A stretch of 63,508 nucleotides of DNA, counting the filler, from Octopus bimaculoides (taxonomy: Eukaryota), in the NCBI RefSeq assembly GCF_001194135.2. It is 5 parts of 5 records of this genome, joined end to end, with 100 filler letters (N's around TTAATTAATTAA, not from the genome) between each part and the next. Parts side by side here need not be neighbours in the genome. Positions count along the whole stretch, not along the records: positions 1 to 18,270 come from NC_068985.1; positions 18,371 to 40,732 come from NC_069006.1; positions 40,833 to 52,445 come from NC_068999.1; 2 more parts are not named here. One strand, written 5' to 3'. A program made the translations under genes and the position numbers. Positions 2,246 through 40,981 of this stretch are shown piece by piece. Below the pieces are notes generated by a model. The model did no database searches. It saw only the letters and a list, made by a program, of their open reading frames with translations, and was not told where the DNA came from. Within the stretch, counting starts at the first letter, position 1. Every line of letters begins with the position of its first letter.

Positions 2246-2301
2246 ATCTTACAGCTGTTTCTGGAATATTCCTGAGTATGGGATATTCCGTCATCAGAGA
2301 C
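2246..2301 (-). ncRNA. Minimal type-I hammerhead ribozyme motif (HHR1)
   Basis: Minus strand: GTCT CTGATGA C-GGAATAT-CCCATACTCAGGA-ATATTCC-A GAAAC AGCT GTA AGAT. Helix I GTCT/AGAT, helix III palindrome ACAGCTGT, C-A mismatch at the base of helix II. Predicted cleavage between 2250 and 2249. Confidence 0.75.
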
Positions 2302-2456
2302 AAATAGGGGAAAACATATAGAAAATGAGAATAGTATATACCAATGAGATGATAGCATGTGTTGTTCCCTTCCATATCCTTATTCTGTTACTCCCTTCCT
2401 CTATGTCATCTTATTGATACATACCGTTCTCATTTTCTATATTTTTCCCACTATTT

Positions 2457-2512
2457 GACTCTGATGATGGAATATCCCATACTCGGGAATATCCCAGAAA
2501 CAGTTGTAAGAT
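2457..2512 (+). ncRNA. Minimal type-I hammerhead ribozyme motif (HHR2), inverted sister of HHR1
   Basis: GACT CTGATGA TGGAATATCCC ATACTC GGGAATATCCCA GAAAC AGTT GTA AGAT. Helix II closes U-A; helix I has one mismatch; the loop is AGTT rather than AGCT. Confidence 0.65.
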
Positions 2513-2588
2513 TTTGAAATTCTTCCTATAATAATATTGCATGACTTGAGATATTTGCCTTGCCTTAATGTTTGACGTCCTCTTTAAC

Positions 2589-2631
<43 letters not shown>

Positions 2632-2954
2632 NNNNNNNNNNNNNNNNNNNNNNNNNNNNNNNNNNNNNNNNNNNNNNNNNNNNNNNNNNNNNNNNNNNNN
2701 NNNNNNNNNNAGAATAGGTGCTACGGTATTTCTTCCGGATTTACGTTCCGAGTTCAAATCCTGCCAATATCAATTCTGTCCTTCAGCAATGCGTGGTCGA
2801 GAAAATAAAATATCATAGACGTAAAAAGTTGAGTGAGATTTTTTTTTTAAATATTTCATTATAACTGATGTCTTGAAGAAAAAGGTATTCTATCCTGTTA
2901 CTGATAGTTTTACCTCTCCGTGAAACCTTCCTCTACTATGTTGCATTAAAGTAC

Positions 2955-3207
2955 CTGGTTTATTCGTTTGTACTTCAACCATATCAGCTGACTATTAGCA
3001 ACAATCTGATAGAGTGCTCCATCCAAAACATAGATGTACCCACACAAATACTTTAAACCTTGTCGCAGGTAATTCTCATAAATCTTAGTCAAAAGAACAT
3101 GACGAATTGCCCGCCTTCTTGACAAAGTCGCCAAAGGTGACTCACGAGGTGAATCACGAGTCGCCTTCAAACGAAATGTTGCCTTCCAATCAACAAACCT
3201 GTCGAAC
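2955..3207 (-). CDS. Candidate internal coding exon of an unidentified gene (253 nt, phase 2 to phase 0)
   Basis: Pyrimidine-rich acceptor (ttttcttcttccctgattcaaaatttctgcttcaaaag|), donor CAG|gtactt, and an open frame across the whole exon: FDRFVDWKATFRLKATRDSPRESPLATLSRRRAIRHVLLTKIYENYLRQGLKYLCGYIYVLDGALYQIVANSQLIWLKYKRINQ. No homology recognised. Confidence 0.4.
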
Positions 3208-3615
3208 CTTTTGAAGCAGAAATTTTGAATCAGGGAAGAAGAAAAATGTTCATGATCGTAAACGATAATTTCTTGGGAAGTCCGACGAGTATTATCTAGA
3301 ACTCAATATGTGTGAGAATGTGTGTGGGTTTGTGTGTGGGTGGGCGTGTGTATGTGTGTGAGTGCGTGCGCTCGTGTGAAGACAGATAAAGCAAAGAATA
3401 TACAAGAATGAGTGAAAATTCATGATAATTTACTAATAGTATTATATATCATCCATGTTATATTATATTCGATATAAAAGAAAATAGTCCTAAACGTCCA
3501 GAACCACAGTCTCCAACTTTTACATTCAGGGAAAGTTAGCATACTTGTAGTAATAAAAACAAAACTTATATAACCCACAAGAACCAAAGTTTGTCTGTTG
3601 TAAATACATCCATAC

Positions 3616-3780
3616 CTTAATTCATTAAGTTGTAAAGCCGAATATAGAATATATATAAAAATATACAAAGTACAGTCAACAGAATCATTTATAAAAATTC
3701 GAGTTGATGACTTGTAACAGCTATGTCCAAGATGAATTTTACACTCCTCAAATATTGACATGACATGGGGATAACCCATT
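3616..3780 (-). CDS. Possible upstream exon of the same unidentified gene (165 nt, phase 2 to phase 2)
   Basis: Acceptor cttacattag|, donor AAG|gtatgg, within the 119-codon ORF 3420-3779; phase-compatible with 2955-3207. Other splice choices exist. Confidence 0.2.
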
Positions 3781-4019
3781 CTAATGTAAGTGAGTAGTAC
3801 TTAAGCTTTCCCAATCATCTAGAATTAAAAACACTACACTCCGCAAAATTCAATTCTCCGCTCAATGATTAAGATATTCCAGTTATAATGCATATGGGAC
3901 ATCGATGCTTTGCAATAATGTATACTTATCGCATGTAAGCATAGGGAGATGAAATTCCACAGTAGATTATATATTCTGTAAATAGACATTGTTTCATTCT
4001 TCCACCAAAATATAACTAA

Positions 4020-4328
4020 AAGTTGCTGTTTGTTCCTTCTCGAGCCTTTCCTGGATCGCAAGGGTTGGTTTCCCGGTTTCATTGGCGTATAGGTTATCCA
4101 CCTGGACGGGACGCCGGTCTATCACAGGTGAGCTGCTAGACGCAGGAGGAAAGAGTGAGGGAAAGTTGTGACGAAGGAGTCAGCACAAGTTCGTCATTAC
4201 CTTCTGCCGGCGCCGCATGGAACTTAGGTGTTTTGTTCATAAACACACATCGCACGAGCTGAGATTCGAAACCCCGATCTCTCAACCGCGAATCCGCTGC
4301 TCTAACCACTAGTCAATGTGCCTCCACA
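4020..4328 (-). mobile_element. tRNA-derived SINE (same head as the 12272 copy, different 3' half)
   Basis: Minus-strand head gtggaggcacattgactagtggttagagcagcggattcgcgg...gtttcgaatctc with A/B boxes; short (CAA)-like tail. Confidence 0.8.
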
Positions 4329-5151
4329 TAACCAAAGGTACCTTTCCTAAATATTCTAAATGTTTCCTAAATGTCTGACACTGACTTAGAAGTAATTGGT
4401 AACTGTAACACAAAATCAGTTATTTTATTAGACATAAAATTTCAGAGAAAAATGACAGAATCCTACCTGACGTTAAAAAAATTCATCAATATCGCATATT
4501 GTGTTCTTAGAAGCTGATCCTTCGTCTAGTGCAAATGACCAAATGTCGTTCAACACAATAGAAAACTGCAGGCGTCATGCGAGCATGTAGCAGATGATAC
4601 ATTTTTAATAATTTCTTTAGTAGTTGCGAATAATTATAACCATCTTTTAAGCCATTCCATGCTTATCTTGAGAAAAATCTACAGGTCATTACTAGCAGAG
4701 AGAAAGAGAGAGAGAGAGTGGGGGAGTGAGTGAAAGAGAGAGAGGGTGGGAGAGTTAGAAAGAGACACAGAAAGACAGACAAACAGACAGACGGTCAGAA
4801 AAAGAGAAAGCTTGACAGAAAGAAAGAGAATGTGAAAGAATGAAAGGCTTTGTAACTTAACAGTTAAACATTTCATTAAAAGCCAGAGCCACTTAACTAG
4901 TAACAGCTTAGTTATGGGCTCAGTTTAATCAAATAAAAGCCCCGGTCAAAATATTTCGATTTCTACTAATGCCGAGAAACCATTATATTTATATTTATAA
5001 TTAATGACAACTAAATTTAGCACATGGATAGTAGGTTTAGGGCAAGGTGCAGACGATATAAGCGACGCCATTTTTTTTTTCGTCTGGAATAGGTTTTATC
5101 TTCAACAGAAAGATAATAATGAGTCACAGTAGTTCCAGTAACAGCTTCGAC

Positions 5152-5187
<36 letters not shown>

Positions 5188-39094: not shown

Positions 39095-39380
39095 GTGCTG
39101 GTTCCACATAAAAGGCACCCGTGCCAGTGCTATGTGAAAGGCACCCATGCTGGTGTCACATAAGAAGCACCCATGCCGGTGCCATACAATTGGCACCTGT
39201 CCCAGCACCACATAACAGGCTCCCATGCTGGTGCAACATAAAAGGCACCTGTGCTGGCGCCATGTAAGAAGCACTCGTGCCAGTGCCACCTATGGGGCAC
39301 TCGTGCTGGTGCCACCTATGGGGCACTCATGCTGGTGCCACATAAAATGCAACTGTGCCAGCATCACATGAAAAGAACCT
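39095..39380 (+). repeat. Eleven exact-period 26-bp tandem units inside a SINE (39060-39590)
   Basis: Consensus gtgctggtgccacataaaaggcaccc; units start at 39095, 39121, 39147 and so on to 39355. Confidence 0.95.
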
Positions 39381-39535
39381 AGTACACTTTGTAAAACGGT
39401 TGGCATTAGGAAGGGCATCCAGCCATAGAAACAATGCCACAAAAGACAAATGGAACCTCGTGCAGCTCTCCAGCAGGCCAGCTCCTATCAAACAGTCCAA
39501 CCCATGCCAGCATGGAAAATGGACATTAAAGGAGG

Positions 39536-39587
<52 letters not shown>

Positions 39588-39955
39588 CATTTCAGCATTT
39601 TTATTTACACTAGCAATTTCCATCATGTATATTTTCTGACAATACCTCCAATTAGAAAAGTCAAATATTCCATACATACAAGCCAAAATGCTGTAATTAT
39701 CAGCTACTATCATTATGTACAGCTCTGGTATTCTAGTGCTACGGCAATGTGATAAAAAGGCTTCAAGGTTAGATAAGTTAACAATGAACAAAGGAAAAAC
39801 AAAAAAGAATCTAACTTGGTCACCAGATTGCTTTGTTTGCATTCTGTTTGTGAGAACCAGGATATGGCTTTGTAAATCTAGAGCTGCTCTGATGTCACAA
39901 GCACAAGCCATTGGGACCCTAATGCATCCATACTGACAGAGGAATCCCATCATAC

Positions 39956-39988
<33 letters not shown>

Positions 39989-39989
39989 T

Positions 39990-40360
39990 ATTCATTCTTT
40001 TACTCTCTTTGGTCATTTGCCTGCAGCCATGATTTAGTTGAGCAAATCGACTGCAGGACTTATTCTTTATAAGCCTAGTACTTATTCTATCAGTCTCTTT
40101 TGGCAAACTGCTAAGTTACAGGGACGCAAAGACACCAGGATCAGTTGGCAAGCAATATTGGGGGGGGGGAACAAACACAGACACACACACACATTCATAC
40201 GCATATATACAACAGGTTTCTTTCAGTTTCTGTCTTCCAAATCCACTCACAAGACTTTGGTTGGCCCGAGGATATAGAGGACACTTGCCCAAGGTGCCAT
40301 GCAGTGGGACTGAACCTGGAATCATGTAGTTGGTAAGCAAGCTACTTACATGGCCACTCC
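39990..40360 (-). mobile_element. CORE-like SINE
   Basis: Matches the 27925 copy end to end. Confidence 0.85.
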
Positions 40361-40394
40361 TGTATATATATATATAATCATGATGACACCTGTG

Positions 40395-40720
40395 CCCAGC
40401 GTCGCCTTCCTGGCACGTGTAAAGACATTCAAGCGAGATCGTTGCCAGTGCCGCTGGACTGGCTCCTGTGCAGGTGGCATGTAAAATACACCATTTTGAG
40501 CGTGGTCGTTGCCAGTACCGTCTGACTGGCCCTCGTGCCGGTGGCATGTAAAATGCACCCACTACACACTCGGAGTGGTTGGCGTTAGGAAGGGCATCCA
40601 GCTGTAGAAACTGCCAAATCAGATTGGAGCCTGGTGTAGCCACCTGGTCCATCAGTCCTCAGTCAAATCGTCCAACCCATGCTAGCATAGAAAGCGGACG
40701 TTAAACGATGATTATGATGA
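40395..40720 (+). mobile_element. (GAT)n-tailed SINE, little diverged
   Basis: CpG-intact copy of the 19700/24425 family. Confidence 0.85.
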
Positions 40721-40732
40721 TATGTATATATA

Positions 40733-40832
40733 NNNNNNNNNNNNNNNNNNNNNNNNNNNNNNNNNNNNNNNNNNNNTTAATTAATTAANNNNNNNNNNNN
40801 NNNNNNNNNNNNNNNNNNNNNNNNNNNNNNNN
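40733..40832. other. Artificial scaffold-join spacer
   Basis: 44 N + TTAATTAATTAA (40777-40788) + 44 N. Confidence 0.97.
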
Positions 40833-40897
40833 ACCTTATCCATCTATTGTTTTCATAATCGGTCATAATGTCTTACGTTTAAGATGATTCCCATGCT

Positions 40898-40981
40898 TTC
40901 TCTGATGAGAAGGTTACAATTTTAATATCAAAGATCCCTATGGATCACACAGGTTGTAATCCTTTGAAACATATGTAGGAA
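40898..40981 (+). ncRNA. Hammerhead ribozyme motif (HHR5)
   Basis: TTCT CTGATGA GAAGG TTACAA...GATCC-ctat-GGATC...TTGTAA T CCTTT GAAAC ATAT GTA GGAA. Helix II 5+6 bp with one bulge; helix III palindrome ACATATGT; helix I TTCT/GGAA; AATAAA at 40980. Predicted cleavage between 40977 and 40978. Confidence 0.85.

What the first reader, a model, noticed from the sequence alone, without database searches (positions are those of the whole stretch)
2246..40981. Five minimal hammerhead ribozymes from four sequence families, all with self-complementary helix III
Seen: five loci carry the full core CUGAnGA...GAAAC...GUA with pairable helices I and II. Helix III plus loop reads ACAGCTGT, ACAGTTGT, ACTATTAGT, ACGTATGT and ACATATGT, i.e. 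perfect palindromes or one change away. The flanks and helix II are unrelated between families, so the shared geometry points to conserved function rather than recent copying. Known: minimal type-I hammerheads occur in Penelope-like element pLTRs and are proposed to cleave as dimers through a palindromic helix III (Cervera and De la Pena 2014). Inference: this genome holds several independent hammerhead-bearing families, most here without coding sequence (solo pLTRs or non-autonomous retrozyme-like RNAs). The motif class is known; I do not know whether these families are described in this species.
Basis: partly seen in the sequence, partly recalled or inferred. Interest (0 to 1): 0.82.

Follow-up and report, generated by a model that had tools for sequence, protein, structure and literature searches.

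The report
Octopus Hydra-retroelement hammerhead ribozyme tails
Five self-cutting-type RNA motifs (hammerheads) really lie in this octopus DNA; one sits at the tail of a broken Penelope-like jumping gene of the known Hydra type and the other four are likely tails of similar elements, so the kind is already described, although two have unusually long folded arms and one family's RNA looks heavily edited.

Summary
All five hammerhead cores and their self-complementary helix III are present. A strict descriptor finds 4 of the 5, against at most 1 hit in each of 200 shuffles. The host is an Octopus. HH3 lies in the 3' UTR of a decayed, 5'-truncated RT + GIY-YIG ORF with Hydra-clade motifs. Craig et al. 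2021 already list Hydra-clade hammerheads of this build, including an O. bimaculoides family. HH1/HH2 are a head-to-head inverted pair, so not a tandem dimer. The four insertions end 53-100 nt after the cut site at microsatellites. Corrections: every copy has a weak or damaged helix, and HH4/HH5 are not minimal. Their helix II is 75 and 57 nt, against 10-30 nt in 42 Hydra-type motifs. RNA reads show both families are multi-copy and transcribed, with no read-end pile-up at the cut site and no circle joints. HH5-family reads carry an A>G/T>C excess resembling A-to-I editing (no DNA control). This scan noted the same class, long arms included, on other octopus-like DNA. Verdict: new members of a known kind; low-moderate interest.

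The parts
2164..2593 (.). Head-to-head inverted pair of two 5'-truncated element ends (arms about 2164-2352 and 2406-2593), 3' ends facing outward; right end abuts (CA)n(TA)n
   Evidence: as one transcript it is predicted to fold into a hairpin of -249 kcal/mol in which 47 of 48 HH2 nucleotides pair with the other arm
2250..2297 (-). HH1 type I hammerhead; helix I 4 bp, helix II 29 nt with C.A at base, helix III ACAGCTGT
   Evidence: Hydra-type model E 0.017
2461..2508 (+). HH2, same family as HH1; helix I broken at third pair; helix III ACAGTTGT (self-pairs with two G.U)
   Evidence: missed by strict descriptor and by model R1
8240..9716 (-). 5'-truncated, decayed Hydra-clade Penelope-like element between (TA)n tracts
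8631..9714 (-). ORF remnant: end of RT, thumb, Cys linker, GIY-YIG endonuclease without CCHH; stops and frameshifts
   Evidence: tblastn E 2e-35 to P0042 residues 367-711; profile of 54 ORFs i-E 1e-30 and 5e-23
8352..8396 (-). HH3 in the 3' UTR about 235 nt after the ORF match; helix I GCGC/GCGC, helix II 25 nt, helix III ACTATTAGT
   Evidence: model R1 E 2.5e-7; same helix III in L023, L037, L043 and Penelope-1_HM
32232..32441 (-). Short element end between (TA)n and (AGAT)n; at least one other copy runs on 255 nt further 5'
32288..32381 (-). HH4 with 75-nt helix II rod; helix III ACGTATGT
40833..41030 (+). Short element end, 5' side lost in an N gap, 3' end at (TA)n; antisense in an intron of the CPTP gene (intron inferred: first 38 codons not in window)
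40902..40977 (+). HH5 with 57-nt branched helix II; helix III ACATATGT
37045..37548 (-). Context: last coding exon of ceramide-1-phosphate transfer protein (GLTP family); identifies the host as Octopus

Best explanation
The five motifs are type I hammerheads; HH3 lies in the 3' UTR of a decayed Hydra-clade Penelope-like retroelement, and the other four are likely 3' ends of related elements, left as 5'-truncated copies in microsatellites. In the active parent, the short self-complementary helix III is predicted to be unstable alone and to pair between two copies in a tandem transcript, which would cut the RNA after GUA and release the unit that the element's RT/GIY-YIG protein copies into (TA)n. 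Copying likely stops early, leaving only the ribozyme-bearing tail, sometimes with an inverted second piece (HH1/HH2). The present copies are likely inert passengers: single or inverted, mutated, and transcribed without visible cleavage. Shown: motifs, ORF linkage for HH3, flanks, multi-copy transcription of the HH4 and HH5 families. Inferred: linkage of HH1/2, HH4, HH5 to an ORF; dimer cleavage; the insertion mechanism.
For: ORF remnant 8631-9714 matches full RT+GIY-YIG proteins. Its translation shows X-N-C-x5-C (first Cys position is a stop), no Cys between the GIY- and YIG-like motifs, CxxC before the conserved E and CxH after the N, the Hydra diagnostics of PMC8557442 section 11. 34 of 48 related loci with >=250 nt after the ORF have a sense hammerhead within 700 nt; helix III is 8-10 nt and self-pairs fully in 33 of 42 motifs. 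Cut site to flanking microsatellite is 84, 100, 56, 53 nt for HH2-HH5. HH5-family reads end at 41029 and run into (TA)n with mixed flanks, and show opposite-strand joints in the 5' part in all three raw runs, the inverted arrangement described for PLEs. HH4-family reads: of 34 listed variable places none is in the 12 invariant core or cut-site positions, N7 varies, helix I regains a C-G pair, and helix III changes to another self-pairing form. In the HH5 family 534 of 543 reads at 40901 have C, giving a 4-bp Watson-Crick helix I.
Against: No coding remnant lies next to HH1/2, HH4 or HH5, and their flanks match none of the 79 loci by blastn beyond one weak 36-nt hit. Model R1 finds HH3, HH1 and weakly HH5 but not HH2 or HH4. 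Helix II of HH4 and HH5 lies outside the 10-30 nt of the 42 Hydra-type motifs. No pile-up of read ends at GUA in either lay, so cleavage is not shown. Some HH4-family loose ends have a damaged GAAA. The reference motifs were picked by a pairing descriptor and the 79 loci are redundant, so the covariation is partly circular. No outgroup tree was built.
Confidence: 0.85

Rival explanations
1. HH4, HH5 and HH1/2 are short non-autonomous elements with their own life cycle (retrozyme-like): transcribed as tandems, cut, circularised and mobilised in trans by a PLE enzyme.
For: No ORF beside them; families are multi-copy and transcribed; long helix II would suit a compact structured RNA; metazoan retrozymes exist in molluscs (PMC7229834, passages).
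Against: No site lies in a tandem array; no head-to-tail or back joint passed the listing threshold in 8 run-lays (one 2-read back joint 41007 to 40860 in X21 is not at the cut site or the 3' end); other copies run on further 5' (loose ends); retrozyme hammerheads are described as canonical with loop 1-loop 2 contacts.
Confidence: 0.15
2. One or more copies have been kept by the host to cut or destabilise CPTP-region transcripts.
For: HH4 lies 4.7 kb downstream of the CPTP stop on the same strand; reads 99% alike cover it (24, 20, 19 reads).
Against: A 922-nt contig spans HH4 whole with no difference; no read-end pile-up; HH5 is antisense; copies carry helix-weakening changes relative to their families; a lone copy has no tandem partner.
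Confidence: 0.03
3. The motifs are chance matches in AT-rich repeat DNA.
For: Rfam finds no hammerhead; HH2 fails the strict descriptor.
Against: 4 hits against at most 1 in each of 200 shuffles; HH3 at the expected place behind a PLE ORF; core kept while N7 and helices vary in family reads.
Confidence: 0.01

Closest known systems
Hydra-clade Penelope-like elements, incl. Hydra-1_Obim of Octopus bimaculoides (Craig et al. 2021, PMC8557442; passages, section 11, supplement parts 1, 2, 52, 53 read)
   Same: C-terminal GIY-YIG without CCHH, CxCx5C-type linker, CxxC and CxH motifs, (TA)n targets, a type I hammerhead near the 3' end with short palindromic helix III; ACTATTAGT is the helix III listed for Penelope-1_HM.
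   Different: The hammerhead listed for Hydra-1_Obim matches none of the five; by eye the remnant is about half identical to its protein over one 69-residue stretch, so a different family. Listed Hydra helix II spans are at most about 26 nt; HH4 and HH5 have 75 and 57 (long helix II is listed only for the spike-moss PLE-X1 rows marked as deviating).
[quoted passage not shown]
   Same: Type I, short helix I, longer helix II, palindromic helix III, mostly single dispersed copies, some close pairs on opposite strands; dimer-dependent, low in vitro activity.
   Different: These five have an 8-9 nt helix III (the 'small palindromic' variant, not the helix-III-less min-HHR); G10.1-C11.1 is absent in all but HH4 (HH5 has G.U); no octopus data in the parts read.
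Dimer-cleaving PLE hammerheads (Lunse, Weinberg, Breaker, RNA Biol; not held; known here only through review PMC6765202 passages)
   Same: Palindromic very short stem III, cleavage as dimers in tandem PLEs.
   Different: No tandem partner exists for any copy here; the inverted pair would mask rather than complete the ribozyme.
Metazoan non-LTR retrozymes (Cervera and De la Pena 2020, PMC7229834; passages read)
   Same: Short, non-coding, transcribed, hammerhead-bearing repeats in invertebrates.
   Different: Retrozymes are head-to-tail tandems giving circles with canonical hammerheads; none of that is seen here.

Membership tests
Type I hammerhead ribozyme | Core CUGAnGA / GAAA / NUH with helix I open | tested here: met
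   5 of 5
Type I hammerhead ribozyme | Three pairable helices | tested here: inconclusive
   Met for HH1, HH3, HH4, HH5 by descriptor; HH2 helix I only 2 contiguous pairs; HH3 helix II weak; helix III stable only as a duplex
Type I hammerhead ribozyme | Self-cleavage after NUH | not testable with these tools
   Needs assay; RNA reads show no end pile-up at HH4 or HH5, in a library type that may not show it
Type I hammerhead ribozyme | Match to an Rfam hammerhead model | tested here: not met
   None among 59 matches at E<=1; these short-helix-III variants are scored instead by model R1 (3 of 5)
Hydra-clade PLE (HH3 element) | RT followed by C-terminal GIY-YIG endonuclease | tested here: met
   Colinear match to P0042 residues 367-711
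Hydra-clade PLE (HH3 element) | CCHH absent from the endonuclease | tested here: met
   No Cys between the SIIY and TYI motifs
Hydra-clade PLE (HH3 element) | CxCX5C linker | tested here: met
   Reads X-N-C-x5-C; first position is a stop in this decayed copy
Hydra-clade PLE (HH3 element) | CxxC and CxH beside conserved E and N | tested here: met
   CRLCLAE and N..SE..SGCMH in the translation
Hydra-clade PLE (HH3 element) | N-terminal RWK and DKT motifs | not testable with these tools
   Copy is 5'-truncated; its best protein match P0042 has both
Hydra-clade PLE (HH3 element) | Insertion in (TA)n and hammerhead near the 3' end | tested here: met
Hydra-clade PLE (HH3 element) | Phylogenetic placement against Neptune, Nematis, Penelope/Poseidon | not tested
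   No outgroup sequences were fetched
PLE 3' ends (HH1/2, HH4, HH5) | Physical link to a PLE ORF | tested here: inconclusive
   None in the window; no own genome held; loose ends give only 30 letters
PLE 3' ends (HH1/2, HH4, HH5) | Fixed 3' end at microsatellite, variable 5' end, inverted 5'-attached copies | tested here: met
   HH1/2 inverted pair; HH5 family 3' end and opposite-strand joints; HH4 longer copy
Non-LTR retrozyme | Head-to-tail tandem of short monomers, circular RNA | tested here: not met
   No array at any site; no listed tandem or circle joints; circles can be missed by these libraries

The most novel reading that the evidence does not exclude
Octopus carries PLE hammerhead families whose helix II has grown to 57-75 nt and is kept by compensatory change, and the host's ADAR hyper-edits their RNA, including core A15.1, because the elements' own inverted insertions make long duplexes: A-to-I editing would act as a brake on retroelement ribozymes.
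Probability: 0.2. Interest if true: 0.6.

Novelty: new member of a known kind. Interest (0 to 1): 0.3.

Why it matters
It adds undescribed Octopus families to a known class and shows how dense they are (five in about 59 kb of called bases) while Rfam misses them all. The long-helix-II variants would also escape size-limited descriptors. They offer natural substrates for the still open question of what PLE hammerheads do in vivo, and the editing pattern, if confirmed with DNA, links that question to cephalopod ADAR biology. As they stand the copies are most likely inert relics, so the finding is not surprising to a specialist.

Tried and rejected
Own-genome search: no genome held, so no genome-wide count or family alignment. 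Rfam: only AT-repeat miRNA noise. Pfam on 131 short ORFs (of 483 listed) found GLTP, a mariner-type transposase piece, LINE RT and integrase pieces, but nothing on the PLE fragments; Pfam also missed the five full-length relatives. The endonuclease fragment alone found no homologue among 38 candidates. The representatives search was never run. Viral contigs: 72 pattern matches, none a relative. No listed holder is on record as RNA; three raw RNA runs of the same species label were laid instead. Dimer formation between HH1 and HH2 in cis was rejected: they are on opposite strands and would form a hairpin. Unconstrained cofolding gives an intermolecular helix III for HH1 and HH5 but not the full active fold for any site. 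Literature searches: 'hammerhead + Penelope-like + octopus', '+ Hydra clade' and 'hammerhead ribozyme + cephalopod' gave only Craig 2021 as relevant; 'hammerhead + long stem II + retrotransposon' gave 0; 'hammerhead ribozyme + A-to-I editing + retrotransposon + ADAR' gave 1 unrelated paper. The library lacks many subscription papers, Lunse et al. among them, and supplements of Cervera 2014 were not read; either may hold octopus or long-stem examples.
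Full report
Observation. A structural descriptor hits 4 of the 5 and nothing else in the window; 200 block-wise dinucleotide shuffles gave 0 hits 183 times and 1 hit 17 times, and with a palindrome filter 0 hits 197 times and 1 hit 3 times. 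HH2 is missed because its helix I breaks at the third pair. Rfam reports no hammerhead among 59 matches at E<=1. Helix II spans 29, 29, 25, 75 and 57 nt, with folding z-scores of -3.5, -1.1, -0.05, -5.8 and -2.4. Helix III is unfavourable as a hairpin (+2.1 to +2.4 kcal/mol) and favourable as a self-duplex (-11.1, -3.4, -4.9, -6.2, -7.0).

Host. The exon at 37045-37548 (-) encodes a GLTP-family protein, 95% identical to Octopus sinensis ceramide-1-phosphate transfer protein. The host is therefore an Octopus; the species is not established by my calls. No own genome is held.

HH3 belongs to a coding element. The stretch 9716 to 8240 (-) lies between (TA)n tracts. Read with X at stops, one fragment finds 5 unnamed proteins of 429-813 aa among 184 candidates. 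These match 8631-9714 colinearly across frameshifts, E 2e-35 for P0042, and a profile of 54 related ORFs finds only this locus in the window at i-E below 0.2. The translation has the end of an RT, then X-N-C-x5-C, a GIY-YIG-like region with no internal cysteines, CxxC before the conserved glutamate and CxH after the asparagine. These are the diagnostics given for the Hydra clade in Craig et al. 2021 (PMC8557442 section 11). Its supplement lists Hydra-1_Obim from O. bimaculoides, nearly all Hydra families in (TA)n, and a table of Hydra hammerheads with short palindromic helix III, ACTATTAGT among them. The Hydra-1_Obim hammerhead differs from all five here, and by eye its protein is about half identical to the remnant over one 69-residue stretch, so this is a sister family.

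Independent relatives. An alignment of the five proteins fetched 79 loci from metagenome contigs (best 80 of 505). On 43 hand-picked non-identical motifs 93% of cells pair and all 4 helix I pairs change on both sides, but the motifs were chosen for pairing and the loci are related, so this is partly circular. A model built from them scores HH3 at E 2.5e-7, HH1 at 0.017 and HH5 at 0.14, and misses HH2 and HH4 (12 matches at E<=5).

The other insertions. HH1 and HH2 are the arms of a 430-bp inverted repeat, 2164-2593, with 3' ends outward. That is the inverted 5'-truncated arrangement described for PLEs, and close opposite-strand pairs are also reported by Cervera and De la Pena. One transcript holds only one sense motif, and folding pairs 47 of 48 HH2 nucleotides with the other arm, so the pair cannot be the dimer. 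HH4 sits in about 210 bp between (TA)n and (AGAT)n, HH5 in about 200 bp between an N gap and (TA)n. Cut site to microsatellite is 84, 100, 56 and 53 nt for HH2-HH5. No coding remnant lies beside them.

RNA reads, HH4 (three raw runs of one study, about 6% of each read, plus one contig set). 69, 120 and 70 reads were laid, of which 40, 91 and 50 are under 90% alike, so other copies are transcribed. Of 34 listed variable places none falls on the 12 invariant core or cut-site positions; N7 varies; 32284 restores a C-G pair in helix I; 32368 turns G.U into A-U; 32292 and 32294 change together to ACATGTGT, which also self-pairs with two wobbles. Loose ends show subfamilies with an intact CUGAnGA and a different inner helix II 5' arm, together with changes at 32312-32313 that would keep pairing (unphased, inferred). 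Against this, some loose ends show copies with a damaged GAAA. No end pile-up and no joint was listed, and one contig spans the site whole.

RNA reads, HH5. 477, 501 and 366 reads. 534 of 543 reads have C at 40901, so the family helix I is four Watson-Crick pairs. N7 is T, A or G. Reads leave the element at 41029 into (TA)n with mixed flanks, and three opposite-strand joints recur in all three raw runs, as inverted pairs like HH1/HH2 would give (template switching is an alternative). Depth is flat across the cut site (X19: 137/134 before, 137/130 after) with no pile-up. A>G (24, 24, 29 places) and T>C (18, 17, 14) far exceed G>A plus C>T (4, 2, 3), Fisher p 6e-5 to 4e-6 after composition, whereas HH4 shows the opposite bias. 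Most sites are at 10-35% and include A15.1 (40969). This resembles A-to-I hyper-editing on both strands in an apparently unstranded library, and octopus repeats are known to be heavily edited (PMC5625713 passages). There is no DNA control, 29 rows were not shown, and copy divergence is not excluded.

Mechanism. Shown: real cores, ORF linkage for HH3, microsatellite-bounded ends, multi-copy transcription of two families. From the literature: PLE hammerheads with short palindromic helix III cleave poorly and mainly as dimers. Inferred: parents made tandem transcripts cut by a two-copy hammerhead; early-terminating reverse transcription left 3' tails in (TA)n; the copies here are single or inverted, mutated and probably inert. 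The retrozyme rival lacks tandems and circles.

Novelty. The class, the clade and an octopus member are in print. New here are several further Octopus families, helix II lengths of 57 and 75 nt beyond the Hydra range I could measure, and an editing-like pattern over one family. My searches found no paper on octopus long-stem or edited PLE hammerheads, within a library that lacks many papers. Earlier notes of this scan describe the same class and long arms on other octopus-like DNA; they are unchecked and were read after I had noted the long arms and the Hydra link (note). Score 0.3.

Noticed in passing
window 40835-41030: RNA reads of the HH5 family show a strong A>G plus T>C excess, including core A15.1 and U4, resembling A-to-I hyper-editing; no DNA control.
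   Followed up: partly
window 32246-32288: A well-expressed other locus matches only this 43-nt tail, and the match stops exactly at the HH4 cut-site nucleotide; its upstream letters look like a decayed GAAA plus CAATTG palindrome. Either another family sharing the tail or a copy truncated at the cut site.
   Followed up: no
window 61464-61577 (-): Possible decayed sixth hammerhead: one core change, 5-bp helix I, 93-nt helix II region; no null was run for this relaxed scan.
   Followed up: no
window 24763-24853 (-): Weak model hit (E 2.4) with CUGAAGA, 59-nt spacer and a damaged GAAA; may be chance.
   Followed up: partly
window 37045-37548 (-): Last coding exon of CPTP; the first 38 codons are not found in the window, so the intron is likely over 25 kb.
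   Followed up: partly
window 15731-16066, 44356-45582, 46692-47045, 47422-48853, 59071-59442: Fragments of a mariner-type transposase, LINE RT/zinc-finger pieces and an LTR-type integrase.
   Followed up: no
window 19729-19853, 24578-24712, 32529-32628, 37796-37919, 40600-40732: A dispersed SINE-like repeat of about 100-125 bp with a CTGAGGA-like word but no hammerhead; copies lie next to HH4 and HH5.
   Followed up: no
window 18271-18370, 40733-40832, 52446-52545, 62124-62223: Paired 44-N gaps around a 12-nt spacer (TTAATTAATTAA at 40777-40788), probably an assembly artefact.
   Followed up: no
L004, L057, L058, L071, L075: Metagenome Hydra-type loci with the same hammerhead both before and after the ORF, i.e. 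intact pLTR tandems, good templates for a dimer-cleavage assay.
   Followed up: no
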